From a virus (Duplodnaviria; Heunggongvirae; Uroviricota; Caudoviricetes), in the IMG/VR virus record IMGVR_UViG_3300031760_000006, positions 1 to 27,126 of that record: a DNA stretch of 27,126 nt, one strand, 5' to 3'. Position numbers and translations under genes: made by a program. Below the pieces are notes generated by a model. That model saw only the letters and a program-made list of their open reading frames with translations, was not told the origin of the DNA and did not search any database. Positions 95 through 17,128 of this stretch are shown piece by piece. Positions within the stretch are counted from its first letter, which is position 1; every line of letters starts with the position of its first letter.

Positions 95-362
95 TCCACA
101 ATTTTTAAAAGAACTAACTGAAGGACAAGATTTAAAATATTGTAAACAGGAAAATGTAATATATGTAAAACCGGGCATATTTGCAATGTCTCAAAGAAAA
201 ATTGAGAGATTGATTCGAATTGCCGAAATGCAAAAATATTATCAATGTAATCCTGTTCGTTTTATTAATGACTTTTTTAATATAGAATTACTTGATGCAC
301 AAGCGTGGATTATTCAAAGGTCATGGACTTGTCCTAATGTATTGTTGGTTTGTACAAGGGGT
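87..362 (+). CDS. terL: Terminase large subunit, exon 1 (join 87..362,702..2498; about 690 aa)
   Basis: ATG 87 follows GGTGAG and overlaps the upstream stop. Encodes NPVRFINDFFNIELLDAQ and ends LVCTRG, the first half of the Walker A motif. Confidence 0.85.
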
Positions 363-701
363 TAAACAAAAAATGTTTTATGTAAATAAAATATGAAAAA
401 ATAAAACATTTTTTAGGCTCCGCTGCTTAGAAATAAGTAGGCAATAATCGGGCAAAATCGGTGAACGACTAAGTTGTCATGATATGTCAACACCGAGATA
501 ACCAATAAGATTGCGAAAGGTTTATTGGTATTGTAACGCATAGGTAGTGAATAAATATAATCTACCCACGAGTGTCCGACACCCGAGCATTTAAAGATGC
601 GGGTGAAAATATATGCTAATCTGAATTGGAATTGACCAATTAATGAAAATGAAGGAAACTTCCAGAGCGTAAGATAAAAAGCTTACGGTTAATAACGAAT
701 G
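363..701 (+). mobile_element. Group I intron without ORF (IA-like, 339 nt) in the terL Walker A motif
   Basis: 5' exon ends GGT and intron ends G701, giving RG|FGKST. P1 GGGGU/GCUCC has the U.G pair. P3 UCGGGC/GUCCGA, P4 UCGGUG/CACCGA, P7 GCAUA 538-542 / UAUGC 612-616, P8 CACCCG/GGGUG. Confidence 0.9.
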
Positions 702-2498
702 TTTGGAAAATCAACAATTATAGATATCATGATAATGGCAAAAGATATGTTGTTCAATAATTATTGGACATATATTGCTTCAGGTTCTGGTTCTCAGGCT
801 GAAGAAACTTTTACAACTCTTGAACGATTAGCCAACGATAATATAGATACAATGCTTGGTTCTACTGGTTATATTTTTAAACAGGAAGTAGAAATCAAGA
901 ATGCCGCAGGTGATGGTTTTAGTCATTCGTCTAATGGTTTTTCGTATAGTTTGTATAATGGAGCTTTTACACAAACGCTTAACTCAAATGTTGATAAAAA
1001 AAGGGGCAAACGTGGCTCTGTAGTATTTGACGAGTGTGGTTTCTTAGATGAGGAAATGATGAGTGTTTATGCGGCTTTTGCCATTGTAAACAAAAGTTTT
1101 AAATCTGGTAAAGATAGAGATGGAAACACAATTGATAGAAACAGACTTCGTTGTATTCCTAGTAATATCCCGAATCAGTTATTCTACATATCTTCTGCTT
1201 CTTCTACTGATACAGAATTTTATAAATTATACCGAGATTTTAGTAAGCGGCAATTAATGGGTGACCCTGATTATTTTGTTGCACATATTGATTGCGAAAT
1301 AGCTTTTAATCCCACTATTCATGGTGAGGTAATGGAGCCGCTGCTTTCGAGAAGCACTGTAGAAGCGGCAATGAGAGCGAATCCTGAAAAAGCAAGAAGG
1401 GAATATTATTGTCAATTTACATCGGATGCAGGAAATAATGCAGTTATTCGTAGAGGTGTCATTACTCGTAATGAAAAAACATATAAGCCAGTTCTTTATA
1501 ATGATACTGGTAATCGTAAAGTAGTAATTACATATGACCCCGCCCGTTCTCGTGATAATTCTGTAATTTTAGTTATAGAGATATATCCTTTTAAGGATTC
1601 TAATGGAGATGTTGAATATAAAGCACGTTTACTTAATTGTATTAATTTGATTGATATAGGTAAAAAAAGAAAGTCTCCAATGCAAACACCTGACCAAATT
1701 GATTACTTAAAAGAAGTAATTCTTGATTATAATCAAGGTGGCGATGAAAATTATAGTAACATTCTTGGTGTTTATATAGATGCTGGTTCTGGTGGAGGCG
1801 GTGTTAATATTGCTGATTTCTTAATGGAAGATTGGGTTGGAAAAGATGGAAAAATGCATAAAGGGTTAATTGATAAAGAATATTCAAAAGAATATATTAA
1901 GAAATTTCCTAATGCTGTGGATAAAATTCATTTAATGTCTCCTAGTCAATACAAATCTATTATGTATGAAGCAATGATAGAAATGATTAATCAGAATAAA
2001 GTTGAATTTCCTGCTTCTTATGATAATAAAGGTTACTTAACGGTATTTGATATAGATGAGGAAAAACTTGAAAAAGAAAAAGCTAAGATAGAAACAAAAT
2101 TAAAAAAGAAGAAGTTATCACAGGAAGATTTTGATTATCAGCTACAAGAAGAATTAGATAAAATTCAAAATGTAAAAACAAAGAATGTTAAACTTGATTG
2201 GCAAGAAGAAATAGCCTTAATTGGTATAGATGCCTTGAAAGAAGAATTGGTAAATATGATTCGTATTAAACGTGAATCTGGAAAAGACAGTTTTGAACTT
2301 ACGCCAGAGAAACGCAATAAATTAAATGATGATAGAGCATATTGTTGTTGCATGGCTTGTTATGCTTTATCTGAAGAAAGAAGAAAAAATATTACTTCTC
2401 GAAGAAAACAAGAAGACCCTAATAACCTTCTTGATTTGTTTGAAATTCGTAGAGGGACTAGACCTTCTGCTTTTAGTGATAAAAAAATAGCGATGTAA
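702..2498 (+). CDS. terL: Terminase large subunit, exon 2
   Basis: FGKST completes Walker A. Walker B VVFDECG, motif III ISSAS, RNase H-like nuclease motifs YDPARSRDNS, YIDAGSGGGG and NDDRAY. Confidence 0.92.
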   Translation, partial: FGKSTIIDIMIMAKDMLFNNYWTYIASGSGSQAEETFTTLERLANDNIDTMLGSTGYIFKQEVEIKNAAGDGFSHSSNGFSYSLYNGAFTQTLNSNVDKKRGKRGSVVFDECGFLDEEMMSVYAAFAIVNKSFKSGKDRDGNTIDRNRLRCIPSNIPNQLFYISSASSTDTEFYKLYRDFSKRQLMGDPDYFVAHIDCEIAFNPTIHGEVMEPLLSRSTVEAAMRANPEKARREYYCQFTSDAGNNAVIRRGVITRNEKTYKPVLYNDTGNRKVVITYDPARSRDNSVILVIEIYPFKDSNGDVEYKARLLNCINLIDIGKKRKSPMQTPDQIDYLKEVILDYNQGGDENYSNILGVYIDAGSGGGGVNIADFLMEDWVGKDGKMHKGLIDKEYSKEYIKKFPNAVDKIHLMSPSQYKSIMYEAMIEMINQNKVEFPASYDNKGYLTVFDIDEEKLEKEKAKIETKLKKKKLSQEDFDYQLQEELDKIQNVKTKNVKLDWQEEIALIGIDALKEELVNMIRIKRESGKDSFELTPEKRNKLNDDRAYCCCMACYALSEERRKNITSRRKQEDPNNLLDLFEIRRGTRPSAFSDKKIAM

Positions 2499-2510
2499 GG
2501 GGGTGAAAGT

Positions 2511-4085
2511 TTGGCAAGAAGTATGAAAAAAAGTAATAGAAAAACAAAAGACAATGTTCAGCAAGAACTTAAAAAGCGTCCAGAATCTGCTGGCGAAATT
2601 CAAAGGTGGTATGAACAAAACAAACTTCAAATAGAAAATTTTGCTGATGCTTCTGATGCAATAAAAATATTAAGGGACGTTAATTCTAATAAAATTAACA
2701 GAACAATTAGTACTTTTGATAAAAGTAGATTGAGAAGTTATTTGCAAAATATTTCTTCTAACTCAACTAACTTAATTAATTTATCAAGGTATTTAGAGTA
2801 CCGTTCTCAGATTTATCACAGAATTATAAAATATTACGCAAATATGCTTTGCATGGAGGCAAGGATTGTGATTCCACCTTATAGTTTGACACAGCCTCTT
2901 TCACCTGAAGAAACTTTAAAGATATATGAAGAAAGTCTAGTTGTTTTAAATAATATGAATCTTCAGTATGAAATGTTAAAAGCGGCAATTGTATGCTGGC
3001 GTGAAGATGTGTTCTTTGGATGTAATTATTATGACGATAGCGGGCATTTCATTTACCCATTAGATTCTCAGTATTGTAGAATTATCGGTATTTATCCGAC
3101 AGGTGATTTTGCATTTGCTATGGATATGACTTACTTCAGAAGTAGGCAGGAACTATTAGAAGCATTGGGTGAACCATTTACTACTATGTATAGAGAATAT
3201 GGTGGAGATAACCAAAAAAAATGGGTTCCTTTCCCAGATGAGTACGCTGTTTGTTTTAAAATTCGGTCTGAAGATTGGGAAACTATTGTTCCACCTTTAG
3301 TCGGTTTATTTAATTCTTTGTTAAATTTATCTGACCTTGAAGACATAGAAGCAATTGCAGATGAACAGCAAATTTATAAAATGTTGTGGTTAGAGTTAAC
3401 TACTTTAACTAATACAGATATACCAGACGATTGGAAAGTGAGTCCTTCTATAGTTGCTCAATATTATAGGAAGATAGTCAATGACGGTATACCAGATTAT
3501 ACTACAGCAATTATATCTCCTGTACCAATTCATGAAGTATCTTTTAATAACGATGCGGCTAGTGATACTACAAAAGTTCAAAAGGCAACCGAATCTGTAT
3601 TGAATACTTCAGGTGGAGCACAAATATTGAATTCTGCTGCAATTACTGGTAGCACTGGGCTTAATTTGGTAATGAAGGCTGACACAGAATATGCTATCTC
3701 TTCTCTCTTACCTCAAATTCAGGCGTGGGTTAATAGATTTTTATCTTATCAAGTTTCTAAGCCTTGTAAAATTAAGTTTTTTGAAGTAAGTGCGTATACT
3801 AAAGGAGAATTAAAACAAGAGCTATTAACGTCTGCTACTTATGGCTTGCCGAATAGATTGGCTTTAAATAGTCTTATGGGTATAAGCGAACTTGAGACAT
3901 TATCTATGCTTAATCTTGAAATTGAGATACTTGAATTAGATGAAAAAATGATTCCAGTTTCTACTTCTTACACAATGTCAGGAAATAATGCAAATAGGGA
4001 TAATGTTGGTAGACCAAAATCTAGTGACACAGAGATTACCGATGATGGCGAAGCCAGCAGAGATAAAACAGATAGAGCGAATTAA
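2511..4085 (+). CDS. Portal protein (524 aa, TTG start)
   Basis: Directly after terL with SD GGGGGTG. Size typical of portals. SRYLEYRSQIYHRII helix and C-terminal VGRP...D tail typical of SPbeta-like portals. Confidence 0.8.
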   Translation: MARSMKKSNRKTKDNVQQELKKRPESAGEIQRWYEQNKLQIENFADASDAIKILRDVNSNKINRTISTFDKSRLRSYLQNISSNSTNLINLSRYLEYRSQIYHRIIKYYANMLCMEARIVIPPYSLTQPLSPEETLKIYEESLVVLNNMNLQYEMLKAAIVCWREDVFFGCNYYDDSGHFIYPLDSQYCRIIGIYPTGDFAFAMDMTYFRSRQELLEALGEPFTTMYREYGGDNQKKWVPFPDEYAVCFKIRSEDWETIVPPLVGLFNSLLNLSDLEDIEAIADEQQIYKMLWLELTTLTNTDIPDDWKVSPSIVAQYYRKIVNDGIPDYTTAIISPVPIHEVSFNNDAASDTTKVQKATESVLNTSGGAQILNSAAITGSTGLNLVMKADTEYAISSLLPQIQAWVNRFLSYQVSKPCKIKFFEVSAYTKGELKQELLTSATYGLPNRLALNSLMGISELETLSMLNLEIEILELDEKMIPVSTSYTMSGNNANRDNVGRPKSSDTEITDDGEASRDKTDRAN

Positions 4086-4155
4086 TACTATTGGGTCAAG
4101 TAGTTAACTTGATAAATAAAATTACAAACATATTGTTTATTTATGCCCTAAGAAT

Positions 4156-4190
4156 AGAGAGCCAATAAATGTTGGCTCTTTTTTATTTTT
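4156..4190 (+). terminator. Intrinsic terminator-like hairpin upstream of the GIY-YIG gene
   Basis: AGAGAGCCAA-taaatg-TTGGCTCTTT followed by a T-run. Confidence 0.6.
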
Positions 4191-4201
4191 AGGAGGTAAA
4201 A

Positions 4202-5401
4202 ATGTCTTTTAATAATAATACTAAGTTGTTTGAAGGATATATTTATAAGATAGACAATAGTATTAATAATAAAATATATATTGGTCAAACTTCAAGCAAA
4301 ATAAATTTAAGATGGAATCAACACAAAAGTGCCGCAAAAACTAAAGTATATAGCCTACCCTTGTATAATGCTATGAATAAATATGGTATAGAAAAATTTT
4401 CTATTCATGTAATCGAAAAGTATTATGCGAATACAAAAGAGGACTTGTTGGATATTTTGAATGAAAAAGAGATTTATTATATATCAAAGTACAACACATT
4501 ACGTCCCAACGGGTACAATGTCAGTTCTGGCGGTGATAATCTTTCTCATTTAAATATTATTCCTGTTGATGCTTATTATGCCGATGGAACTTTATTTAAA
4601 AGATTTAGTTCTCAAATAGATGCTAAAGAGTATTTAAATCGTCCTTCTGCGTCTATATCTAAGTGTTGCAAAGGCAAAGCGTTTTCCGCAAGTGGATATG
4701 TGTGGAGGTATAAAGATGAACCGTTTGAAAAGTATAATATTAATGTAACTCAAGAGCAATTAGATAGGGATAATAATAAAATTCCCGTAGATGTCTATAC
4801 TTTGGAGGGCGTTTTTGTAGATAGTTATGATTGCATAAAGAAAGCGTTGGAAGGTTTGTGTAATCGGAGTGAGGGAACATCTTTTGTTAAAAAAGTATGT
4901 GATGGCATATATAATCAGGCTTATGGATATGTTTTTAGATATCTTGGAGAGCCTTTCGACAAGTACGAATACAAAACTAATGCCGTGTATAAACCAGTTG
5001 ATTTATACACGTTAAATGGTGATTTCATCGGTACATATCCTACCATTGCTCAAGCCGCCCGTGAAAATAATATTTCTAATCGTTCACATCTTTCTGACTG
5101 TTGTAACGGTAAACGAAAATATGTGGAAAATTTTGTTTGTAGATACACTGGAGAACCTTTTGATAAATATTTATTAGAAAGAAAGAAATCTGGAACGATT
5201 CCAAAAAAGGTGAACCAATATAGTTTGACGAATGAATATTTAAAAACTTATTGCTCTTCTAAAGACGCTTACAATGAAACAAAAGTTTATTTTACAAGCA
5301 TATTAAAAACTTGTAGGGGTACGCAGAAAACAGCTGGTGGATATAAATGGTTTTATGCTGATGACCCCAATCAACCTGATAGAACCAAAATAATATCTTA
5401 G
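4202..5401 (+). CDS. Free-standing GIY-YIG homing endonuclease with four NUMOD1-type repeats
   Basis: GYIYKI..N.IN.KIYIGQT, RWNQH, EKEIYYI and PNGYN motifs. Four repeats of pattern (P)V..Y...G.....(F/Y).S.......I..(C)C.G....A.GY.WRY. SD AGGAGG. Confidence 0.9.
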   Translation: MSFNNNTKLFEGYIYKIDNSINNKIYIGQTSSKINLRWNQHKSAAKTKVYSLPLYNAMNKYGIEKFSIHVIEKYYANTKEDLLDILNEKEIYYISKYNTLRPNGYNVSSGGDNLSHLNIIPVDAYYADGTLFKRFSSQIDAKEYLNRPSASISKCCKGKAFSASGYVWRYKDEPFEKYNINVTQEQLDRDNNKIPVDVYTLEGVFVDSYDCIKKALEGLCNRSEGTSFVKKVCDGIYNQAYGYVFRYLGEPFDKYEYKTNAVYKPVDLYTLNGDFIGTYPTIAQAARENNISNRSHLSDCCNGKRKYVENFVCRYTGEPFDKYLLERKKSGTIPKKVNQYSLTNEYLKTYCSSKDAYNETKVYFTSILKTCRGTQKTAGGYKWFYADDPNQPDRTKIIS

Positions 5402-5440
5402 TGTTGTTAGGTTGCGAACCACATATAAGATGGTGAGAAA

Positions 5441-5620
5441 ATGAATAATAAAAACCTTTTTGTAAAAACAACTGATGCTGAGACAGCAGAGCAGTTAAAA
5501 GCTGAAGGTTTTCAGCTTATTTCTAAAGAAGGAAATACTTATACTTTTTTAAATAAGACTCCTTCGACATTTAATAAAGATAATAAGAAAATATCTTATT
5601 CAAATATATTAGCAATTTAG
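5441..5620 (+). CDS. Small hypothetical protein (59 aa, MNNKNLFVKTTDAETAEQLKAEGFQLISKEG...), not in ORF track
   Basis: ATG 5441 after GGTGAG, TAG 5618-5620. Fills the gap in the head operon. Confidence 0.7.
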   Translation: MNNKNLFVKTTDAETAEQLKAEGFQLISKEGNTYTFLNKTPSTFNKDNKKISYSNILAI

Positions 5621-5637
5621 ATATATTAGCAATTTAG
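5604..5637. repeat. Perfect 17-bp tandem duplication ATATATTAGCAATTTAG x2
   Basis: Copies at 5604-5620 and 5621-5637. Confidence 0.9.
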
Positions 5638-5674
5638 AATCTTCCTTTTACCAGAAAGGAGGGAAAATGAAGGA

Positions 5675-7345
5675 ATGAAGTTGTTAACACTAGACCAATT
5701 ATATCAGTTTTGTCTAAAAAATAAATTCTATAATTTCAGTTCCAAAGATAGTGGATATCAATTATGTGTTCAAGTTCCTGCTAAATTTGAAAAAGAAGCT
5801 TCTGATGATTCTCTCTTATTTGTAAAAATCAAAGTTTTTCATACTGGCAAGAATAGAAATAAATCCAATGTAACTGTTGATGCGGCAAAGAAAGCAATGA
5901 AGAATATGGCGTATAAACCCATTTTAGCTAATTTTACAGATGTTAATGGTGAAAAGGATTTTACATCTCATGATGGTTATATTGATGAAAACGGTGATTG
6001 GAATTATTTAGAAAGACAAATTGGATGTTTTACCACTGATAAACCATATATGGAGCAAGACCCAGATAATGAGGATAGACAATACGTTTATGCTTACGGA
6101 GCTATTCCACGAGAATATACTGATGCCGCAGATATCATAGAAAGAAAGAATGGTACAAAAGTTTCTGTAGAACTTGCGGTTAATGAAATGAGTTTTGATG
6201 CAGAAAACAAGGAACTTATTCTTGAAGATGTTACGGTAATGGGTTGTACTTGTCTTGGTGTTGATGAAGATGGTAATCCAGTTGGTGAAGGTATGGAAGG
6301 AAGTCGTTTGGATATTGAAGATTTCAGTGCGAAAAATTCCATATGTATGAATATTGACTCAACTGATTTAGTGAAAACTCTAGAGAGACTTAATGCTACG
6401 CTCTCTAGTTTTAATATAGATAGCAAATCTGAAAAGGAGGTGAAAAACGAAATGAGCTTTATGGAAACATTAATGGAAAAATACGGTGTCACTCTTGAAG
6501 ATATCGATTTTGATTTTGAGACTATGAATGACGAAGAACTCGAAAAAGCTTTTGCAGAAAAGTTTGAAACCTCCGAAGAAACTCCTGTTGAAGAAAACGC
6601 AGAAGAAAATGCAGAAGAAAATACTGAAGAGTCCACAGAGAATTTCGGTGACGATGATGAAGATGGTGATGACCCAGCAGATGAGCCTGATACCGATGAA
6701 GATGATTACACAGGTGATGATGAGGTTACACCAAAGAGATATTCTATTGAAATGTCTGATGGCACAGTAAAAGAATTCGCATTGTCTCTTCAAGATAAAA
6801 TTTCTGCTTTAGATACTCTTGTTAACGAAACTTATTCAGAAACAGATAATGATTATTATTATACTCTTGTTTATGATAAGGATGTTGTAATGGTTTCTTA
6901 TTGGACAGGTACAGCTTACCGTCAGGCTTATAAAGAACGTAAAGGTGTTTATTCCCTTCAGGGAGATAGAATTCCTGTACATGCTTTATATGTAACAGAT
7001 GATGAAGAAGCTGAACTGGATAGAATCCGTTCTAATTATTCTGTTATTGAAACAGAATTATCTGAATATAAATACGCTGAAGAAAAAGCTAATAAAGATG
7101 TTCTTATGACATCTGATGAATACTCTTCTATTGTAGATACAAAAGAGTATAGCGAGATTAATGTTGACGAATTAACTTTTGATGAGCTTAAAGGTGAACT
7201 TGACAGTATTCTTCTTAATTACGCTAAAGCTGGTAAGTTAAGTTTTGCAAAGAAGAAAGCTGAAAAGAAAACTACTTTTAAGCCTCTTCCATTTAATGAA
7301 AAGAAGAAGAAAGGACGTTACGGTTCTTTATTTTCTAAGAAATAA
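5675..7345 (+). CDS. Prohead protease-scaffold fusion (556 aa)
   Basis: Between portal and capsid genes. N-terminal VFHTGKNRN...KVSVEL (candidate His/Ser of HK97-type protease), very acidic linker, coiled-coil C-terminal part with basic tail. Confidence 0.7.
   Translation: MKLLTLDQLYQFCLKNKFYNFSSKDSGYQLCVQVPAKFEKEASDDSLLFVKIKVFHTGKNRNKSNVTVDAAKKAMKNMAYKPILANFTDVNGEKDFTSHDGYIDENGDWNYLERQIGCFTTDKPYMEQDPDNEDRQYVYAYGAIPREYTDAADIIERKNGTKVSVELAVNEMSFDAENKELILEDVTVMGCTCLGVDEDGNPVGEGMEGSRLDIEDFSAKNSICMNIDSTDLVKTLERLNATLSSFNIDSKSEKEVKNEMSFMETLMEKYGVTLEDIDFDFETMNDEELEKAFAEKFETSEETPVEENAEENAEENTEESTENFGDDDEDGDDPADEPDTDEDDYTGDDEVTPKRYSIEMSDGTVKEFALSLQDKISALDTLVNETYSETDNDYYYTLVYDKDVVMVSYWTGTAYRQAYKERKGVYSLQGDRIPVHALYVTDDEEAELDRIRSNYSVIETELSEYKYAEEKANKDVLMTSDEYSSIVDTKEYSEINVDELTFDELKGELDSILLNYAKAGKLSFAKKKAEKKTTFKPLPFNEKKKKGRYGSLFSKK
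6452..7345 (+). CDS. Probable nested in-frame scaffold protein (297 aa) from an internal start
   Basis: AAGGAGGTG at 6434-6442 precedes in-frame ATG 6452 at the protease/scaffold boundary. Confidence 0.6.
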   Translation: MSFMETLMEKYGVTLEDIDFDFETMNDEELEKAFAEKFETSEETPVEENAEENAEENTEESTENFGDDDEDGDDPADEPDTDEDDYTGDDEVTPKRYSIEMSDGTVKEFALSLQDKISALDTLVNETYSETDNDYYYTLVYDKDVVMVSYWTGTAYRQAYKERKGVYSLQGDRIPVHALYVTDDEEAELDRIRSNYSVIETELSEYKYAEEKANKDVLMTSDEYSSIVDTKEYSEINVDELTFDELKGELDSILLNYAKAGKLSFAKKKAEKKTTFKPLPFNEKKKKGRYGSLFSKK

Positions 7346-7434
7346 AATGATATATGGTGACTCATGTTAGGGTATGCTCCTAACCCATATATTTGAGAGA
7401 TTTGTGGGATAATTACTCACCACTCTCCTGTTAA

Positions 7435-7466
7435 AAGGGACTGCGAAATGCGGTCTCTTATTTTTT
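7435..7466 (+). terminator. Terminator-like hairpin upstream of the second free-standing endonuclease
   Basis: AAGGGACTGC-gaaat-GCGGTCTCTT followed by ATTTTTT. Confidence 0.55.
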
Positions 7467-7479
7467 ATAAGGAGATTTT

Positions 7480-8652: not shown

Positions 8653-8722
8653 AGTTATGATTATCTAGTAGCTAGTTAATAGCTATATTTTTTTTGTAAA
8701 AAATTAGAAAGGAGAAAAAGCT

Positions 8723-9226
8723 ATGAGTTATAGTATTTCTGTAGCAAAAAGAGGAGTTTTCTTCCCCAGCAAGATTCTTGCTGAGAATGGTGGAGAACAC
8801 TTTTTCAATATTAAGCTGACATCCGACATGGATAACGGTACAATTATTGGTCGTTCCGATGGATGGTCTAGTGGTGAATTTGATGTTTATGATCAAGCTG
8901 CTGCTCCGAACGGATTTGCAGGAAAAATCCGTGGACAGGCCGCTAATGGTAATTGGTATGTTGAGGTTACTACACCTGCTGATGCACTTGTTATTTACAA
9001 TTCTGAGATTCTTCCGAGAGATGACGAAGACCTTTCTCAGATTTCTATGTTCTATAACAGCGTTGTTAATGAAGTAGTTGTTCCCGGTATTGGTCTTCAT
9101 AAGGGAGATATCGGTGAGTTCTCTAAAGAGTGCTTCACAACTACTCCTACAACTGCGTCCATTGGCAAGGCAGTTTCTGTATCTTCTGCAACCGCAACAC
9201 TTGGTAAACTTGTTATTGCTTCTTAA
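8723..9226 (+). CDS. Probable capsid decoration / head stabilising protein (167 aa)
   Basis: Immediately upstream of the major capsid gene, strong SD (GAAAGGAG), codon usage like the capsid gene, G/A/T-rich beta protein. Confidence 0.55.
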   Translation: MSYSISVAKRGVFFPSKILAENGGEHFFNIKLTSDMDNGTIIGRSDGWSSGEFDVYDQAAAPNGFAGKIRGQAANGNWYVEVTTPADALVIYNSEILPRDDEDLSQISMFYNSVVNEVVVPGIGLHKGDIGEFSKECFTTTPTTASIGKAVSVSSATATLGKLVIAS

Positions 9227-9250
9227 TTATAGGGAAAGGAGGAAAAAATA

Positions 9251-10372
9251 ATGAATAAGAGAATGTTTAACTTTTCTGCACATGTAACAAATGTTTTCGC
9301 AGAGGAGAATGTTGAGTACGAAGGACTTAAGAATTTAATGCAAGACCTTTATTATGGTCGTGAGATTTTTGATGATGAGACTGGAAGAGTTATCTCCAAG
9401 AAGGAAGCTAACGACAAAATCCTCTCTATTTCCCATAAGATTATGGGCATTAATGAGAATTCCAGAAAGATGGATAGGAAAGTAGCTTATAATAAGCACG
9501 GTTTAGAGTGGTTCTCTATTATTGCAGAGACCGTTGACGATTTACTTTCCACAGGTTTCCGTGATAGCGAATTCTTCGACCAGTTCGTAGATTACAGGAA
9601 TCAGGCTCTTGATGATGAGATGCAGTTCTGGACAGAGAAAGAAATTATTCTTAATGTTGCCAAAGCTGGAAGAACTCATCATGACCACATTTTGCAGAGA
9701 CTTGGTGCAAGGGAATACACCACAATTCCGTTTGCTCGTTATGTAGCTGCTGTAGGTGCTAATATCGACCGCTTTATGTTAGGTAAGGAAGATTGGAGTA
9801 AACTTATTAACGCTATTACAAGAGCATTCCAAGTACAGATTCAGGATGAAATCTTTGAGAAGGTATTCTCTGCAGCTTCTGCTATTCCTGCACCTGCACA
9901 GTTCATCGCAACTGGCCCTCTTACAAACGCAACAAAGGCTTACTTTGATGGGATTATCGAGAACGTATCTATTGCAAATGGTAATGTTCCTGTAGCTATC
10001 TTTGGTACACAGACCGCTCTGAGAAATGTGTCTGGACTTGCTGGCGTTGTTGGTGGCAGTGCCGATGTCCATTGGATTGCACCTTCTCAGAAGGAAGATG
10101 TTGCTCATCTTGGCAGACTTGGCGATTATGAGGGTCATGTACTCGTAGAGATTCCGCAGAGATTTGCTCGTAACGATGTTACCCAGAAACTGTATGACAA
10201 TACTAAACTTCTCATTCTCCCGATGGGCGAGGACATGAAGATGGTACTTATGACAGATGCTGGCGAGACTCTGATTGATGAGATTACAGACCGTGGAGAG
10301 GCTAATGGCTTCATTGGCGATATCATGAAGTACGAAATCCAGAGGGATTACGGTATCGCTGTAAAGATTGGT
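9251..10372 (+). CDS. Major capsid protein, exon 1 (join 9251..10372,10646..10696; 390 aa)
   Basis: SD AAGGAGG, higher-GC biased codons, position after scaffold/decoration genes, HK97-fold size. Ends GIAVKIG. Confidence 0.85.
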
Positions 10373-10645
10373 AAATTTTGCCAGTTTGTATAGAAATATA
10401 CAAATGTAATCGGGCAAAATCGGTGAAGGCTAAGTTATCATAATAATTGATGATATGCTAATACCGAGATAACCAATAAGATTGCGAAAGGCTTATTGGT
10501 ATTGTAGAGCGTAGAAGTTGAATAAATATAATACTTCCACGAGTGTCCGACACCCAAACATTTAGGATGTGGGTGAATATGTACGCCGAACTTATAGGAA
10601 ACTATAAGAACTAAGGGATAAAAAGCCTTTAGGATAACATAATTG
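10373..10645 (+). mobile_element. Group I intron without ORF (273 nt), sister of the terL intron
   Basis: P1 AUUGGU/GCCAGU with U.G at the splice site, terminal G10645. Long blocks identical to the terL intron. P7 GCGUA 10509-10513 / UACGC 10582-10586. Confidence 0.9.
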
Positions 10646-10696
10646 AGATATTTCGGTTGCTGGACTATCGGTTCTAGCTACACTCCCGGTGCTTAA
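10646..10696 (+). CDS. Major capsid protein, exon 2 (RYFGCWTIGSSYTPGA*)
   Basis: In frame after splicing. Supplies a plausible final beta strand. Codon usage matches exon 1. Confidence 0.8.
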   Translation, partial: RYFGCWTIGSSYTPGA

Positions 10697-10729
10697 TTAA
10701 TATATAAATTTGAATAAAAGGAGAAAAAT

Positions 10730-11305
10730 ATGGCAAGACAGATGAAGAAAAAGGAAGCCGTGGTTGAAGAAGCTACGGCTTCTGTTGTGGATAAAACCGA
10801 GAAAACAGAAGTAAAAGCAAAAACTGCAAAGAAAGTTAAGAAGGAATTCAAAGATACTGACGGTATCATGTGTCGTTCTGTTGTGGAGGGTAGATTGCTA
10901 TTTGTTGGCGAAAAGACAGGTATGCTTTATCAATGGTACGGTTATGGTGCTGAATACGAAGTTGAGTATAGAGACCTTGTAATTGCAGTTCGTACAAGAG
11001 GCCCTTACATTTTCAATCCTTATTTTATTATTGAAGACGAAGATTTCCTCGAGGAATTCCCAGTTGTTAAAAAGTTCTATGAGGATTCTTATGATGTAAA
11101 AGAACTTAAAAATATTCTTTATATGCCTCTTGAGGATATGAAGAAGGCAATTGTTGCACTGCCGAAGGGAGCATTAAAGACTCTTCAGAGCATAGCTTCC
11201 ACCGAGGTTTCTAATAAAACTCTTGATAGTATCCAGAAGATTCGTTATCTTGACGAAGTTTTCGGTACAGAACTTTTGCTCTTAACGGAGTTCTCTGAAA
11301 GCTAA
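10730..11305 (+). CDS. Hypothetical head-associated protein (191 aa)
   Basis: SD AAAGGAG, directly after the capsid gene, K/E-rich N-terminus. Confidence 0.6.
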   Translation: MARQMKKKEAVVEEATASVVDKTEKTEVKAKTAKKVKKEFKDTDGIMCRSVVEGRLLFVGEKTGMLYQWYGYGAEYEVEYRDLVIAVRTRGPYIFNPYFIIEDEDFLEEFPVVKKFYEDSYDVKELKNILYMPLEDMKKAIVALPKGALKTLQSIASTEVSNKTLDSIQKIRYLDEVFGTELLLLTEFSES

Positions 11306-11316
11306 GGTGATTATTT

Positions 11317-11656
11317 ATGGTCACTGTTGATTTTGCTGATGTTTATTCTGTTTTTTTTAATAAAATAGAAGCTTATGATTTTCTTGAATTAGATGATTCT
11401 GTAATCAATCAAATGTTGTTATTATATTTGAAATCATCTTTTACTAATCCATTTATCAGACAGCTGTTCTCTTCTCTCACCGTTGATGAAGATGGAGAAA
11501 ATTTTAGTTTTGAAATGAAATATGTAATTGATGACGATTCAGATACAGAATTTATAAAAGAAGTTCTTGCTTTAGGATTATGCATTAAATGGATTACTCC
11601 TAAAGTTAATTCTATTGTTGGTGTAAATCAAACTTATGGAAGTAAAGAAGAAAAAT
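11317..11656 (+). CDS. Probable head-tail connector/adaptor, exon 1 (join 11317..11656,13092..13216; 154 aa)
   Basis: Position and size fit a neck adaptor. Splicing gives GSKEEK-F-FSEASHKAELRNIL. Confidence 0.65.
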
Positions 11657-13091
11657 TGAGAGGTAAATTACCTCACGGTTCGCTATATTCGGAAACGGTA
11701 TAGTGTATTCCTTCGAATATGCTGGGACGCCCTTAGAGTCACAATACCGAAACAGAATAATGAAATATGTATAGATGGTATGGTTTGAGAAAAATGTGAA
11801 TTGGGCAATCAGCAGGGAAGTTGCGAATAGTGACACCCTCAACGACTGTGGATTGAAATATCCGTAGGGAGAAGTCTCCCGAAGTGAAGGACTCCTAAGT
11901 ACAACTTTGTTGTATATGGTGAATGATATAGTCTATGCTTGCGTGAAAGCGTAAGAAAATTTTATACGGTAATGATAACAAGACCAGACAGCGGGTAGCT
12001 CCCGTTTCATCGTAGCTCCTTAATGCGATGATTATGGTCTTTTTATATTTTTTTGTTTTTAAGGAGGAAACATTAGACATGTTATTTTCACAAAAAGATA
12101 AGAGACAAATTATAAAAATGTATAAAAGTCAAGAATCAATAGATTCAATAATTGCTTATTTTCAGTGCAAGGAAAAAGATATTCGAGTTATTCTGAAAGA
12201 AAATTATTTAGATAGGGCTAAAAATCAAAAGTTTTCTAAAGAATTAGAAAATAGAATAATTACTATGCATCAAAATAATAAACTTCATAAAGAAATAAGC
12301 GATGAATTATTAGTGTCAAGTAGTGGAATAAATAAAGTGTTAGATAGAAATAATATACCAAGAATGTCCGCAAGTATGCGGAATCGGAAATATGATAGAA
12401 ATTCATTTTATTTTGATAATATTGATACTCCCAATAAAGCTTATATTTTGGGGTTATTATATGCGGATGGTAATTTAAGCAGAGAAAATCAAATAATCAT
12501 TAGTTTGCAAGAAGAAGATGGATATATAATAAAACAAATTAAAAATGAATTAGGATATACTGGAAATATTTCCTATGTCGATTTAAAAAAGAAATCTCCT
12601 CAATGGAAAAATCAATATAGATTAGCTATTAACGATAGTCACATGGCAAAAGAATTGATGAACAAGGGACTGGTCTATACAAAAAGCTTGGTTCTTCAAT
12701 TTCCCGATTTCTTGAATAGCGAATTAATATCTCACTTTATTAGAGGTTATTATGATGGAGATGGAAATATTTGGTATGATAATAAACGAAATAAATGCCA
12801 AGTATCTATATGTGGCACCAATGAGGTGATGCAAGGTTTATCTATTATACTCACGAAATTAAATATTAAGCATAATATTTACTCTCCAAAACAGTGTAAA
12901 GGACGTAACACTTTTGTTTTAAGAACTTGTGGCAACAAATCAAGCTATGCCATTTTATCTTGGTTATATAAAGATGCTAACATGAAGATTTTAAGAAAAT
13001 ATAATTATTATTTAGATTTTTGTGAAAAATATAATAAAGTACCTGTATAAAATCTTATTTGAATTAACGACTCAAATAAGTAATGCAACAG
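11657..13091 (+). mobile_element. Group I intron (1,435 nt) carrying a LAGLIDADG homing endonuclease in P9
   Basis: P4 UGCUGG/UCAGCA, P7 GACUG 11844-11848 / UAGUC 11929-11933. Long-range stem 11959-11971 with 13040-13053 encloses the ORF. Terminal G13091 restores the frame after T11656. Confidence 0.88.
12079..13050 (+). CDS. Intron-encoded double-motif LAGLIDADG homing endonuclease with N-terminal HTH-like repeats (323 aa)
   Basis: AYILGLLYADG and SHFIRGYYDGDG motifs. SD AAGGAGG supports ATG 12079 rather than 12028. Confidence 0.92.
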   Translation: MLFSQKDKRQIIKMYKSQESIDSIIAYFQCKEKDIRVILKENYLDRAKNQKFSKELENRIITMHQNNKLHKEISDELLVSSSGINKVLDRNNIPRMSASMRNRKYDRNSFYFDNIDTPNKAYILGLLYADGNLSRENQIIISLQEEDGYIIKQIKNELGYTGNISYVDLKKKSPQWKNQYRLAINDSHMAKELMNKGLVYTKSLVLQFPDFLNSELISHFIRGYYDGDGNIWYDNKRNKCQVSICGTNEVMQGLSIILTKLNIKHNIYSPKQCKGRNTFVLRTCGNKSSYAILSWLYKDANMKILRKYNYYLDFCEKYNKVPV

Positions 13092-13216
13092 TTTTTTCAG
13101 AGGCATCTCATAAAGCAGAGCTTCGAAACATTCTTAATCTTTGGAAAAGAGAACAGTTAAAAAAAATTCGTGACAGAGGATATATTTGGAACGAATATTT
13201 GGATGGTGAAATCTAA
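13092..13216 (+). CDS. Probable head-tail connector, exon 2
   Basis: Coding part of ORF 13022-13216. Its stop overlaps the next ATG (TAATG). Confidence 0.7.
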
Positions 13217-13560
13217 TGAAAACTATCTATGGCGGTTATTTTCCAGAGGAACAATTTGAGGAATATAAAAAGAAAATGCATAAAGAAATGTTTTGGCTCT
13301 TAATATATAAAGACCCAAAAACAAAAGATGATTATCTTTATGTAGATTTTGAAAAATATTTTATAGGATTGATGAAGAAATTAAATGGTCTAAACGCTCT
13401 CTTCTCTTATCCTGTTGAAATGGTGTCTATTATGGGATTGCTTCAAGGAGCGTATCTTGAGACACAAAAAGAAAACTTTGATTATTCGATTTACAGAAAA
13501 CTTGTTTTAGATGCCCATGCTTTGGTTGACCAAATTGGAAACAATATTGAAAATGAGTGA
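13216..13560 (+). CDS. Hypothetical virion/neck protein (114 aa)
   Basis: Translationally coupled on both sides within the neck cluster. Confidence 0.65.
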   Translation: MKTIYGGYFPEEQFEEYKKKMHKEMFWLLIYKDPKTKDDYLYVDFEKYFIGLMKKLNGLNALFSYPVEMVSIMGLLQGAYLETQKENFDYSIYRKLVLDAHALVDQIGNNIENE

Positions 13561-14771
13561 TTGTTATGAATATCAAACAATATAAAGAATATTTAACCTT
13601 GCATGGCAGAAATCAAGCAGAAGTAAAGAAAAATCAAAGTGATTTTAATATTGACACTACTTTTACTCGTGACCCAAATTATAAACGAGTATACATTTTA
13701 ACAAAAGACGGATGGCAATATGAAGATGCGAAATACCAATTTCATGTTGCTAATTCTATTCTTAAAGATAGTGTTGATTATTATTTGCAATTTAGACCAA
13801 AGGTACATTATCCAGTAGGAAGTTATGTTATAGTTCCTGATGACACATCTTTTGATATAAATTTGACCGAGGAACAATTAGAGAATCCATTCTCTCAACC
13901 TGTTTCTGAAAGAACTCAATGGTGGTTTATAGTAGGTAGGGACGATGCTCGTTCTTATGTAAGATATAATATTCTTAAATGTAATTGGAATTTCCAGTGG
14001 ATCTGGAAAGGAAAAGTTATGAATTGTTTTGGTGCTATTAGAGTTGCCAACAGCTATACAAGTGGCGTTTGGAGGGATGAAATCTCCGAATCTCTTGACA
14101 ATATTATATCTGCATGGGTTCCTGATTATTATTCTGCTTATGGAATTGAAAATCTTTCAAAATTAGGATTGGATAATAATCAAACCATTACTTACAATCG
14201 GCGTTTTATGATTACTGATTCTGAATATGAACCCAAGTGTTACAGGGTTACTAAAGTAATTGAATTAACTCCAAAAGGGGTTATTAAGTACACTTTAAAG
14301 CAGGATGAATTTAATGAAAAACGAGATGAGCCATTATTAAAAATCTGCGATTATTATACCAACGAAGGCAATCCATTAGCTGAAACAACTATTTCTGGAG
14401 ATGAGGAAAAAACAAGTACCATTATTTGGAAAGATATTAACGAAGCTGGAGAATTAATTGATAATGAAAATGTAGATAAATTCTTAACTTTGGGAAAATC
14501 TTCGTATTTTTCAGTGGTATTTTCTACAGAAAAAGTTGATGCAAAATGGGAAATTAATATTAAAGCAGATGGTCAAAATGGTCAAAATAATCTATCAAAA
14601 GATGAAATTAAATATTATAACAATTTAATTAAAATAAGTAAATTCGGCCCAACAGTCATGTCTTTAAAGCCTAGCAAAGCTCACAGTTTAATAGGAAAAG
14701 TCTTCACATTATCAGTTAGTGATATTAATGGAGATTACTATTCTTCTATTGAATTGGAGGTGAAAGGATGA
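13557..14771 (+). CDS. Probable neck/head-closure protein with beta-rich C-terminal domain (404 aa)
   Basis: Coupled ORF in the neck cluster. Function from synteny only. Confidence 0.5.
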   Translation: MIVMNIKQYKEYLTLHGRNQAEVKKNQSDFNIDTTFTRDPNYKRVYILTKDGWQYEDAKYQFHVANSILKDSVDYYLQFRPKVHYPVGSYVIVPDDTSFDINLTEEQLENPFSQPVSERTQWWFIVGRDDARSYVRYNILKCNWNFQWIWKGKVMNCFGAIRVANSYTSGVWRDEISESLDNIISAWVPDYYSAYGIENLSKLGLDNNQTITYNRRFMITDSEYEPKCYRVTKVIELTPKGVIKYTLKQDEFNEKRDEPLLKICDYYTNEGNPLAETTISGDEEKTSTIIWKDINEAGELIDNENVDKFLTLGKSSYFSVVFSTEKVDAKWEINIKADGQNGQNNLSKDEIKYYNNLIKISKFGPTVMSLKPSKAHSLIGKVFTLSVSDINGDYYSSIELEVKG

Positions 14772-15388
14772 TTAGAGATATAGATAAAATAGTTAGAGAT
14801 CTGGAAGAAAAACGAAATAACGACATTATTCTTAAAAAGAATAAATTGGAAGAAATGTTTTATCAAGATCCTGACTTATTAGAAGTTTTAGGCCAAAAAG
14901 AAAAACAACCTTTAAATCAGTATGCAGATCCTAATAATCCAACAGATGAAGAATTAGAGGAACGCAGAAAAATTCTTGATTACAACGAAAGAATAAGTCA
15001 CAAACAAATTATTCCTTTTCTCAAATTAAATGAGTTACAGAAGGAAGTTGTGAATTTTATTATGTTTGATATTGAGGATAGTCTTATACGTTATGGTACA
15101 TCTGATGCAATAAAACAGCAAAACATAGTTGTGATGTGTTTAGTTCAGGAAGATGACATGGATACTCAATACGGTATACAAAGAGCAGATTTGTTAAGTT
15201 ATATTGTTAGAGATTTACTTTGTTGGACAAATGCTTTAGGTTCTCAGCTTAGATTGGCTAGTGATTATCCTGAAGTTACCGATTCAAAATATTATTGCAG
15301 AACTTTAAAATTTATAATTGAAGCTCCAAATGTTGTAAAAGGTCACATGGGAAAGAATAATAAGTATGACAGATTCCAAAGCATATGA
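14768..15388 (+). CDS. Probable tail completion/terminator protein (206 aa)
   Basis: ATGA overlap with the previous gene. Located upstream of the tail tube gene; RADLLSYIVRDLL helix then beta strands. Confidence 0.5.
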   Translation: MIRDIDKIVRDLEEKRNNDIILKKNKLEEMFYQDPDLLEVLGQKEKQPLNQYADPNNPTDEELEERRKILDYNERISHKQIIPFLKLNELQKEVVNFIMFDIEDSLIRYGTSDAIKQQNIVVMCLVQEDDMDTQYGIQRADLLSYIVRDLLCWTNALGSQLRLASDYPEVTDSKYYCRTLKFIIEAPNVVKGHMGKNNKYDRFQSI

Positions 15389-16163
15389 AATTGACCAGTT
15401 ACGTTTATATTTTGGAGAACCTTTTTCAATAAAGATTCCTTCAATAAATCCAGATATTCCTTATAAAGAAATGATTATATATCAACCAACTATAGGGGAT
15501 ATTATTAATTTTGGAGAAAAGAGATTGTATTCTGCGGTAAATGTTTTTGTAGCTAATTCAACTATGTATCGATTGCAATTATGGGAACTAGGGCTTGATT
15601 GGAATGAGTTATCCGATTTTGAAGTGTTTAGTATGTTGGTAACCAGCTTATCAATTGAAGATACAAAATTATTATTTGGTGATATTGATTTTTCAAAATT
15701 TGTTCCAATGGGTAAAAGAATGCCTGATTCAGAAGAAACAGAATTTATTTTATATAATCAAGAACAAGATATTGAAATAAATAAAGATATACACGGAATT
15801 CTTTGTAATTATATAAGAACTATGTTTAATATCTTTCCAAAACGAGAATTTGCAAAAGGTAAAGCTACTAAAAAAGCATTGATTTGGGAAGACAGACAGA
15901 AATTAGAACGAGATAAAGACAAAACTTACTCCTCTTCTCTTCTGCCGATGATTAGTTCTTGTTTAAATCACCCCGGTTTTAAATATAAAAAAAATGAACT
16001 TCGAGAAGTTGGAATTGTAGAATTTATGGATAGTGTGCAACGGTTGCAGATTTATGAATCTACAACCGCTTTATTAAGAGGAATGTATTCAGGATTTATG
16101 GATACTTCTAAAATAGATAAGGAACAATTTAATTTTATGCGTGAGATAAAGCTTACTCATTAA
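15366..16163 (+). CDS. Hypothetical structural-module protein (265 aa)
   Basis: Long ORF overlapping the previous gene. No motif recognised. Confidence 0.65.
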   Translation: MTDSKAYEIDQLRLYFGEPFSIKIPSINPDIPYKEMIIYQPTIGDIINFGEKRLYSAVNVFVANSTMYRLQLWELGLDWNELSDFEVFSMLVTSLSIEDTKLLFGDIDFSKFVPMGKRMPDSEETEFILYNQEQDIEINKDIHGILCNYIRTMFNIFPKREFAKGKATKKALIWEDRQKLERDKDKTYSSSLLPMISSCLNHPGFKYKKNELREVGIVEFMDSVQRLQIYESTTALLRGMYSGFMDTSKIDKEQFNFMREIKLTH

Positions 16164-16198
16164 ATTAAAACAGTAAATATATTAATTATAGTAATTTT

Positions 16199-16224
16199 GA
16201 ACTTGCTTATGCAAGTTCTTTTTT
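16199..16224 (+). terminator. Terminator-like hairpin just upstream of the major tail SD
   Basis: GAACTTGC-ttat-GCAAGTTC-TTTTTT. Confidence 0.6.
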
Positions 16225-16251
16225 ATTCGAAAAAATGAAGGAGGAATAAAT

Positions 16252-16272
16252 ATGAGTTTTGCTCTTGGCGAT
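16252..16272 (+). CDS. Major tail (tube) protein, exon 1, MSFALGD (join 16252..16272,16605..16772,17129..17737; 265 aa)
   Basis: Strong SD AAGGAGG, ATG, 7 codons, then TAG at the intron start. Confidence 0.8.
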
Positions 16273-16604
16273 TAGCGAAATAGTCGCTTCATATAGTAAT
16301 ATATGTCGAAAAGTCGGTGAACACTTTGTGTGGTGTACAATTCACGTTTAGTGGCCATAGGAAATGATGGTTAAGAATTGTGCTAACAGGGAAACCCTAA
16401 GTGAATAAATTAATTCATATGGCAATCCTGTGCCAAGCTTAGATGGCGACATCTTTGAAGGTGCAACGACTAGGATATACCGACTCTCTGAGTTGATGAA
16501 ATCCGTACTCACATTTTATGTGGGGAAGTGCCGACCGTCCTAAAAATAGGATGATGATATAGTCTAACCCCTTTTAAATATTGCGAAAGCAAGGGTATTA
16601 AGTG
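16273..16604 (+). mobile_element. Group I intron without ORF (332 nt), first major tail intron
   Basis: P1 GGCGAU|UA...UAGUCGCU with U.G, P3 GUCGGU/GCCGAC, P7 GACUA 16468-16472 / UAGUC 16560-16564, terminal G16604. Confidence 0.9.
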
Positions 16605-16772
16605 GTTATCGTTGATAGAATTCAATTTGGATGGGCAGAGAAATTTGACGGAACTCCCATCTATGTTTTAACACAGCTTTCTGAGGGTTCTCTTGAGATT
16701 ACTGCTGAGTCTAAGGATGCCGTTGATAAAGATGGTACTTTGATTAAGAGATTCTGGCAAGGAAAGACGGGT
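16605..16772 (+). CDS. Major tail protein, exon 2 (VIVDRIQFGWAEK...IKRFWQGKTG, 56 aa), not in ORF track
   Basis: Open frame between the two introns, phase 0 on both sides, codon bias like the capsid gene. Confidence 0.85.
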
Positions 16773-17128
16773 AAATGAATTGCTCCCTCGCATAGTGATA
16801 TGCGTTGAATAAGTTAGTGAACACATAAATATGTGGTGTGTGACTCACGTTTAGTAATTATAGGAAATGATAATTAAGAGTCATGCTAACAGGGGAAGCC
16901 TAAGTCAGTTTAGCGTTGCTGATATGGTAATCCTGTGCCAAGCTTTAACTATTGTTAAAGAAGGTCAAACGACCATCCCATTGGTACTGAAATGTACTTT
17001 AGGAGTAGGGCTAGGTGAAATTCCTAGTGGGTGAGACCCCCTTAAATCGAAGTGCTAACTACCCTATTAAATAGGGTAAAGATATGGTCTATTCCCATCT
17101 AAATATTACGAAAGTAAGGGTATTAAAG
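16773..17128 (+). mobile_element. Group I intron without ORF (356 nt), second major tail intron, sister of the first
   Basis: P1 GGGU|AA...UUGCUC, P3 GUUAGU/GCUAAC, P7 GACCA 16971-16975 / UGGUC 17085-17089, terminal G17128. Confidence 0.9.

What the first reader, a model, noticed from the sequence alone, without database searches (positions are those of the whole stretch)
363..17128. Five group I introns make packaging, head, neck and tail genes all splicing-dependent
Seen: five introns in four morphogenesis genes within 17 kb. Each has a U.G P1 pair, P3/P7 pairings and a terminal G, and each restores the frame when removed. Unspliced mRNA hits an early stop in every case. Known: phage group I introns are best described in DNA-metabolism genes (td, nrdB, nrdD, DNA polymerase), with scattered cases in terminase and other late genes. 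Inference: this density in capsid, connector and tail-tube genes is unusual. Virion assembly would depend on five guanosine/Mg-dependent ribozyme reactions, which could act as a timing or metabolic checkpoint, or protect conserved sites from rival endonucleases.
Basis: partly seen in the sequence, partly recalled or inferred. Interest (0 to 1): 0.85.

Follow-up and report, generated by a model that had tools for sequence, protein, structure and literature searches.

The report
Five mobile introns in phage assembly
An uncultured, probably gut-dwelling phage carries five introns of the self-splicing (group I) type in four virion-assembly genes, and close relatives lack each of them, so they are most likely mobile genetic parasites rather than a built-in assembly checkpoint; one of them also holds an RNA fold, absent from Rfam, that is predicted to block translation of its nuclease.

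Summary
All five insertions lie at the stated coordinates, end in U|…G and restore proteins collinear with intronless relatives. All five fold into complete group I cores with covarying helices; Rfam finds only two. Splicing itself was not shown: RNA-run contigs join two junctions exactly, but intronless alleles give the same join.

The checkpoint idea is not supported. Each site is empty in most relatives, a near-clonal strain lacks the capsid intron, relatives carry introns at other sites, and the same intron lineages also sit in DNA-metabolism genes. This genome has a sixth intron, in dUTPase. Intron-rich phages (18.5 introns per genome on average) and RT-PCR-confirmed capsid and tail introns are published. 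This scan earlier noted 16–17 introns in single structural genes on other DNA.

Best reading: homing-driven accumulation at conserved codons. The 'neck' gene is assigned only by position and predicted secondary structure.

In 27 of 31 variants it pairs 6 bases or more with its own downstream region. It is absent from Rfam; this scan noted it earlier elsewhere.

The parts
42..362 (+). terL exon 1; likely true start is the ATG at 87 (inferred from homologue conservation and an upstream GGTGAG)
363..701 (+). I1: ORF-less group I intron inside the Walker A motif of terL (motif name from recall). P1 358-362/417-421, long hairpin 368-414 where relative L002 has a ~1 kb longer insert, P3 448-454/573-579, P7 536-542/612-617
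702..2498 (+). terL exon 2 (PHROG 2, terminase large subunit)
4202..5401 (+). Free-standing GIY-YIG/NUMOD1 homing endonuclease between portal and protease genes; absent from L001 and L398
7480..8652 (+). Free-standing putative endonuclease (PHROG 4538/503, unknown function); absent from L001 and L404, its 3' end present in L405
9251..10372 (+). Major capsid protein exon 1 (homologues annotated major capsid protein in Bacillus phages)
10373..10645 (+). I2: ORF-less group I intron, 80% identical to I1 over 182 nt. P1 10365-10374/10378-10387, P3 10410-10416/10544-10550, P7 10507-10513/10582-10587; absent from near-clonal L399
10646..10696 (+). Major capsid protein exon 2 (16 codons plus stop; conserved C-terminal strand)
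11317..11656 (+). Exon 1 of a conserved 154-aa gene two places after MCP (PHROG 3853, unknown); head-tail adaptor by position and predicted secondary structure only
11657..13091 (+). I3: group I intron of a third lineage. P1 11654-11658/11676-11680, P3 11709-11715/11885-11891, P4 11720-11725/11809-11814, P7 11842-11848/11929-11934, nuclease cassette inserted after P9
11980..12068 (+). Three-way-junction leader RNA (11980-12041) whose third loop (12016-12023) is complementary over 8 bases to 12059-12066, overlapping the Shine-Dalgarno of the nuclease gene
   Evidence: no Rfam family
12079..13050 (+). Intron-encoded LAGLIDADG homing endonuclease (start at 12079 inferred from Shine-Dalgarno spacing; listed ORF starts at 12028)
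13092..13216 (+). Exon 2 of the putative adaptor gene
16252..16272 (+). Tail-tube exon 1 (7 codons)
16273..16604 (+). I4: ORF-less group I intron with two extra hairpins between P3 and P4. P1 16267-16272/16283-16288, P3 16313-16319/16529-16535, P7 16466-16472/16560-16565
16605..16772 (+). Tail-tube exon 2 (56 codons)
16773..17128 (+). I5: ORF-less group I intron, about 75% identical to I4. P3 16813-16819/17053-17059, P7 16969-16975/17085-17090
17129..17737 (+). Tail-tube exon 3 (intronless homologue falls in YomU_Tube, PF27173, atlas score 0.98)

Best explanation
These are five group I introns from three distinct lineages, sitting at conserved codons of four virion-assembly genes; each is absent from most relatives, and they likely splice themselves out and likely accumulated as mobile parasites spread by endonuclease homing, not as a designed checkpoint. 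Shown: boundaries, frame restoration, complete covarying ribozyme cores, patchy occupancy, and a LAGLIDADG gene in I3. Inferred from group I chemistry: exogenous guanosine attacks the U.G site in P1, the terminal G then takes the P7 pocket, and the exons are ligated; in-frame stops just inside each intron would release ribosomes so the RNA can fold. I3 would home with its own nuclease. I1, I2, I4 and I5 have no ORF; they would be post-fixation remnants (L002 keeps a ~1 kb longer insert in I1) or be carried along by the intronic or free-standing nucleases nearby. The leader RNA in I3 would hold nuclease translation down by pairing a loop with the Shine-Dalgarno, keeping ribosomes out of the intron so that splicing is not impaired.
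For: Collinearity with intronless alleles. Covarying cores. Empty sites (loci not de-duplicated): I2 in 154 of 154 scored loci, I3 in 138 of 144, I4 in 108 of 110, I5 in 107 of 111, and I1 in 103 of 105 after correcting two false 'empty' calls from one contig. L399 differs from the window at only 2 positions between 9552 and 13499 outside 10330-10708. It lacks I2 and has 15 differences in that patch, 11 of them in the 33 nt spanning the junction, as co-conversion or allele swapping would leave. Relatives carry introns at many other late-gene sites. By flanking ORF, the I1/I2 lineage is in morphogenesis genes in 17 and DNA/nucleotide genes in 8 of 26 clusters, and the I4/I5 lineage in 12 and 19 of 41. 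Sixth intron with a LAGLIDADG ORF in dUTPase. Leader pairing in 27 of 31 variants versus 18% of cross pairs, 0 of 10,000 permutations. The ORF-less I3 of L400 lacks the leader, and L001 keeps the leader but has lost Shine-Dalgarno and ORF. T4 precedent for RBS sequestration protecting splicing (PMC2988022, passages).
Against: No direct splicing evidence: the joins in RNA runs X3 and X6 also occur in run X7 (type not on record) and could be intronless alleles. No nuclease target was tested, and four of five introns lack an ORF. The direction of the I2 event is unclear, because the window's flanks resemble more distant intronless phages more than L399's do. Five of six detected introns are in late genes, which is not excluded as a real bias. 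Host genes were assigned by adjacent ORFs only.
Confidence: 0.82

Rival explanations
1. The introns form an adaptive timing or metabolic checkpoint that makes virion assembly conditional on GTP, Mg or host state.
For: Five of six detected introns in the genome are in late genes. The sensor idea is mentioned as an unproven hypothesis in PMC11878797 (introduction).
Against: 54 of 89 relatives have no detectable intron core in the same region. A near-clonal strain lacks I2. Occupied sites differ between relatives. The same lineages sit in polymerase, nrdD, dUTPase and helicase genes.
Confidence: 0.06
2. The ORF-less introns are kept because they interrupt the target sites of this phage's own (free-standing or intronic) or rival nucleases, as in collaborative homing; they shield self while competitors' intronless genes are cut. 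This is compatible with the best explanation.
For: Two free-standing, variably present nuclease-like genes lie in the same operon. There is a dense patch of differences around the I2 site in an otherwise near-identical strain. Collaborative homing is described in PMC3984707 and PMC10448857 (passages).
Against: No cleavage site is known for any of these nucleases. The free-standing genes lie 1.7-3.8 kb from the nearest intron site. No locus shows both the free-standing gene and the I2 site in the intronless strain, so linkage could not be scored.
Confidence: 0.3
3. The insertions are dead or mis-assembled sequence and the genes are pseudogenes.
For: Rfam misses three of five. No direct splicing data.
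Against: Cores are intact with compensatory changes. An independent contig (L399) carries I3, I4 and I5 with one difference in total inside them. Exons are intact and conserved.
Confidence: 0.03

Closest known systems
Cluster J mycobacteriophage introns (LittleE capsid gene; BAKA/Optimus tail gene), PMC3706429, passages read
   Same: Group I introns in capsid and tail genes of a siphophage; optional among relatives; with or without a nuclease; U at the exon end and G at the intron end.
   Different: One intron per genome there and splicing shown by RT-PCR; here five in four genes, three lineages, splicing not shown.
Staphylococcus phage Twort orf142 (three introns, exon skipping), as described in PMC10136302, passages read; original paper not read
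   Same: Tandem, similar introns in one gene (I4 and I5 about 75% alike); skipping exon 2 here would stay in frame (209 aa).
   Different: The middle exon is 168 nt rather than 23 nt, the two guide sequences differ, and skipping is untested.
Intron-rich gut phages: crAss-like Delta/Zeta (PMC7886860) and Jug phages (PMC12880540), passages read
   Same: Many group I introns per genome, including MCP and terL.
   Different: Those infect Bacteroidota and have more introns (up to 14; mean 18.5). This phage has SPbeta/Tsamsa-like late gene order and six detected introns.
Bastillevirinae introns (PMC11878797, parts 1 and 3 of 6 read)
   Same: terL genes split by group I introns, mostly resembling subgroup IA; some ORF-less.
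   Different: Four gene families there (DNA polymerase, terL, thymidylate synthase, ribonucleotide reductase); no capsid, adaptor or tail-tube genes.
RBS-sequestering hairpins of T4 I-TevI, I-TevII, I-TevIII and segB (PMC2988022, passages read)
   Same: RNA structure upstream of a homing endonuclease masks the Shine-Dalgarno; loss impairs splicing of the host intron.
   Different: Here a three-way junction with a loop-to-Shine-Dalgarno pseudoknot and a palindromic second loop, also found before free-standing nucleases, TnpB and DUF1376/HTH genes. No relieving late promoter was found (sigma-70 scan only).

Membership tests
Group I intron | P1 helix with U.G pair at the 5' splice site | tested here: met
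   All five; U.G kept in 4 of 5 and 8 of 8 aligned relatives. P1 was not in the alignment for I1/I2.
Group I intron | Terminal G at the 3' splice site, fixed independently by intronless alleles | tested here: met
   exact joins
Group I intron | P3-P7-P8 and P4-P5-P6 core, with the P7 bulge and G-C guanosine-binding pair | tested here: met
   the G-C pair is invariant in all three alignments
Group I intron | Match to Rfam RF00028 above the gathering score | tested here: inconclusive
   I4 52 bits (met), I5 45 bits (below 50), I1-I3 no hit at E<=1; I3-lineage introns in relatives score 88-92 bits
Group I intron | Guanosine-dependent self-splicing | not testable with these tools
   RNA-run contigs cannot separate splicing from intronless alleles
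Subgroup IA (IA2/IA3) | Extra helices P7.1/P7.2 between P7 and P3 | tested here: inconclusive
   One such helix in I1/I2 and two in I3; hairpins seen in I4/I5 but not scored. The subgroup rule is recalled and no subtype models were available.
Mobile (homing) group I intron | Intron-encoded homing endonuclease | tested here: met
   Met for I3 only (LAGLIDADG_3); I1, I2, I4 and I5 have no such ORF
Mobile (homing) group I intron | Nuclease cuts the intronless allele | not testable with these tools
   No assay
Head-tail adaptor (gp6/gp15-like) for the gene split by I3 | Sequence or fold match to a known adaptor | tested here: inconclusive
   No PDB sequence hit; PHROG unknown; nearest named atlas clusters only 0.87, DUF6712 and SU10_adaptor; model pLDDT 81 with helices, a beta-hairpin and two long helices; no fold comparison obtained
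Siphophage tail tube (YomU-like) | Family match and gene position | tested here: met
   Atlas 0.98, PF27173 on 59% of the top cluster; same position as 'major tail protein' in Bacillus phage KoopaTroopa
Any Rfam family, for the I3 leader RNA | Covariance-model match | tested here: not met
   None at E<=1 in the window; in 20 of 46 motif loci at E<=5 only a chance-level U6 hit overlaps the motif (E 2.2)

The most novel reading that the evidence does not exclude
The I3 leader is an uncatalogued, widespread phage RNA class: a three-way junction that pseudoknots onto the Shine-Dalgarno of nucleases and replication-type genes, with a palindromic loop that could let it dimerise. Inside introns it would act as a switch coupling splicing of an essential virion gene to nuclease translation. 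The same locus may also be the first case of a group I intron in a head-tail adaptor gene.
Probability: 0.45. Interest if true: 0.62.

Novelty: new member of a known kind. Interest (0 to 1): 0.36.

Why it matters
The five introns extend a known pattern to a large clade of gut and rumen siphophages and show that Rfam misses three of five real phage introns, so terminase, capsid and tail genes in this clade are easily mis-annotated as fragments. A near-clonal intron-plus/intron-minus pair at the capsid site is a natural test bed for homing and target-site escape. The leader RNA, if it represses as predicted, would be a new structural solution to the old problem of how a parasite inside an intron avoids wrecking its own splicing.

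Tried and rejected
RNA evidence: 9 runs were listed with small word shares. Four were laid and two of them again. X6 joins 16272/16605 and 16772/17129, and X3 joins 16772/17129 on a contig only about 84% alike. X7 (type not on record) shows intronless forms at I2-I5, so none of this proves splicing, and small shares are no evidence of habitat.

'Spare tail' reading of I2, prompted by earlier scan notes: rejected. The six intron-encoded residues are largely dictated by the P1 guide sequence and are one residue out of register with the conserved strand.

preQ1-II hit at 10635-10732 (E 0.29) and the RF00028 hit at G000 129.7 kb (17 bits): treated as chance.

A generic P7 grammar scan gave 9 and 5 hits on the two strands versus 4 on one shuffled strand, so it was uninformative. 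My first I3 structure had P8 mis-registered and was corrected. The automated occupancy script mis-called L002 and L402 as empty at I1.

Host search in GTDB gave only two weak 22-residue hits, so the host is unassigned. No fold comparison of the adaptor model and no model of the tail tube were obtained.

Literature: ten searches. None showed the leader RNA or an adaptor-gene intron in titles, abstracts or the passages read; subscription papers are not in the library. In PMC10690425 (10,000 candidate viral RNAs), supplementary files 1, 2 and 4 could not be searched and may hold the leader.
Full report
Context. The window is the first 27,126 bases of G000, a 155,126-base linear virus record, 91% complete. 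Gene order is terL, portal, protease/scaffold, decoration, major capsid, then five small genes, tail tube and tape measure. This matches Bacillus phage KoopaTroopa and Geobacillus virus E3. Capsid homologues among cultured phages are distant (best rows 26-28% identity; Bacillus, Lactococcus, Clostridioides). The host is unassigned; a Bacillota host is my inference from these relatives and the Shine-Dalgarno usage.

Observation. Each follows T and ends in G, and removal restores frames of 705, 390, 154 and 265 aa. These align without gaps at the junctions to intronless alleles in L001 and L002. Unspliced reading stops after 0, 6, 15, 0 and 1 intron codons. For the capsid gene the unspliced product is 380 rather than 390 aa, but it lacks the C-terminal strand that is conserved across homologues, so splicing is probably still needed.

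Structure. Rfam finds I4 (52 bits) and I5 (45 bits) only. Helix enumeration shows full cores in all five. They fall into three lineages: I1 and I2 (80% over 182 nt), I4 and I5 (about 75%), and I3. With homologous introns from relatives, 33 of 78 pairs (I4/I5 set, 5 sequences), 40 of 64 (I1/I2 set, 6 sequences) and 28 of 66 (I3 set, 8 sequences) show changes on both sides. None of 500 shuffles reaches these values, and slid controls fall to 31-47% paired. The structures were drawn by me from these sequences and the tool warns that related sequences can beat shuffles, so this supports rather than proves. The P7 G-C pair is invariant in all three sets. I4 and I5 carry two extra hairpins between P3 and P4, which covary; I recall such P3.1/P3.2 elements from Bacillus phage introns, but a search for them returned nothing. 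I3 carries a LAGLIDADG gene after P9.

Gene identities. terL is PHROG 2. The capsid call rests on annotated homologues. The tail gene's intronless homologue falls in YomU_Tube at 0.98. The 'neck' gene is unassigned: PHROG 3853 of unknown function in 26 of 26 members, no PDB sequence hit, and named atlas neighbours only at 0.87. Its model (pLDDT 81; helices, a beta-hairpin, two long helices) and its position fit an adaptor by my recall, but no fold comparison was obtained.

Occupancy. In loci from IMG/VR and metagenomes (not de-duplicated), the sites are empty in 154 of 154 (I2), 138 of 144 (I3), 108 of 110 (I4), 107 of 111 (I5) and, after correcting two false calls from one contig, 103 of 105 (I1). 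The terL set is the best 80 of 167 hits and may favour unsplit genes. L001 has I5 only of the five; L002 has I1 (with a ~1 kb longer insert) and I3. L399 is near-clonal: outside a swapped block at 13500-15499 it differs at 19 positions, 15 of them between 10330 and 10708. It carries I3, I4 and I5 but not I2, and 11 of the differences lie in the 33 nt around the empty site. The same intronless letters appear in run X7. Relatives carry introns at other sites: several in the tail tube, several in the capsid gene, two more in terL and a cluster in the homologue of ORF 13557. Of 89 distinct relatives spanning capsid to tail, 54 have no core, 13 one, 17 two, 3 three, 1 four, and the window five. The window is the top of a continuum, not a separate design.

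Gene preference. They collapse to 37 and 61 clusters, of which I annotated 26 and 41, nearly all those with enough flank. By adjacent ORFs, the first lineage is in morphogenesis genes in 17, DNA/nucleotide genes in 8 and unassigned in 1 of 26. The second is in morphogenesis genes in 12, DNA/nucleotide genes in 19, and unknown or unassigned in 10 of 41. G000 itself has a sixth intron, I1/I2-like, with a LAGLIDADG ORF near its 5' end, in dUTPase (about 82532 to 81054, minus strand). No further cores were found with four lineage profiles or Rfam, which may miss other types. So these introns go to conserved phage genes of either class.

RNA data. Contigs of two RNA runs join the I4 and I5 junctions, one at about 99% identity over 145 nt. 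Since a run of unknown type holds intronless forms and contigs cannot be tied to a genotype, this fixes the boundaries but does not show splicing.

Just before the I3 nuclease, 11980-12041 folds as a three-way junction (z -3.8, 1 of 200 shuffles as stable). Its third loop pairs over 8 bases with the Shine-Dalgarno region. A pattern scan found 46 loci; 25 lie directly behind an I3-like core, and others precede GIY-YIG and TnsA-like nucleases, TnpB, and DUF1376 or HTH genes (18 downstream ORFs tested, 4 with no family). Of 35 parsed copies, 31 have distinct loops; 27 of these pair 6 or more Watson-Crick bases with their own downstream region, against 18% of cross pairs, and 0 of 10,000 permutations reach the observed mean. 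An ORF-less intron at the I3 site lacks the element (L400), so the ribozyme does not need it. L001 keeps it but has lost the Shine-Dalgarno and ORF. The second loop contains a palindrome; 28 of 32 copies share the loop used in the search pattern, and the 4 that differ are palindromic too. Rfam has no family for it. Two earlier notes of this scan describe what appears to be the same element in other genomes. I found the loop-to-Shine-Dalgarno pairing before reading them and tested it afterwards; the palindrome test follows their lead. Function is inferred from T4, where RBS-masking hairpins delay nuclease translation and their loss impairs splicing (PMC2988022, passages).

Comparison and verdict. 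Group I introns in capsid and tail genes were shown to splice in cluster J mycobacteriophages (PMC3706429). crAss-like Zeta phages have up to 14 introns (PMC7886860), Jug phages average 18.5 with 37 of 76 supported by reads (PMC12880540), and Bastillevirinae terL genes carry up to three (PMC11878797). Reviews link intron placement to conserved nuclease targets and describe in-frame stops and collaborative homing (PMC3984707, PMC10448857). All papers were seen as passages or named parts, not whole. Earlier scan notes report 16 and 17 introns in single structural genes (unchecked by me). The finding is real and accurately described, but it is a new instance of a known kind. The checkpoint reading is unlikely (about 0.06); homing-driven accumulation is the best explanation (about 0.8). 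What lifts it above routine is the near-clonal polymorphic capsid site, a possible adaptor-gene intron, and the leader RNA.

Noticed in passing
G000:C1 about 82532-81054, minus strand (L004): Sixth group I intron, I1/I2-like, in the dUTPase gene, with a 393-aa HTH-LAGLIDADG ORF in its 5' loop.
   Followed up: partly
window 13500-15499 vs L399: A 2-kb block (ORFs 13557, 14768 and part of 15366) differs at about 426 positions in an otherwise near-identical strain: a swapped neck/tail-joining module. The first of these genes is an intron hot spot in relatives.
   Followed up: no
L399:804-836 vs window 10355-10660: The intronless capsid allele is recoded at nearly every codon around the I2 site (11 differences in 33 nt, one amino-acid change) and matches no other locus closely; possible nuclease-escape allele or foreign recombination tract.
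   Followed up: partly
window 4155-4201 and 7425-7479: Both free-standing nuclease-like genes are preceded by a stable hairpin, a U-rich tract and then the Shine-Dalgarno, resembling terminators or RBS-masking structures.
   Followed up: no
L411:6036-6590, L448:11413-11918, L119:20365-20994, L419:6927-7587 and similar: Two intron cores back to back in the homologue of ORF 13557: either tandem introns around a tiny exon or nested introns.
   Followed up: no
L034:9471-9826: An I5-like intron sits one codon upstream of the I4 site in the tail-tube gene, a second independent insertion 3 nt away.
   Followed up: partly
L092:8968-10001: terL carries an in-frame, intein-like insertion four codons after the I1 site (label from sequence appearance, not tested).
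   Followed up: no
window 547-561 and 10519-10533: The P7.1 loop of the I1/I2 lineage keeps a long A/U-rich sequence almost unchanged across six introns while its stem covaries; role unexplained.
   Followed up: no
L350, L358, L367, L368, L394, L395: The leader RNA also occurs in higher-GC phage contigs outside introns, before DUF1376 or unannotated genes.
   Followed up: partly
window 16252-17737: Skipping exon 2 of the tail-tube gene would stay in frame (209 aa).
   Followed up: no
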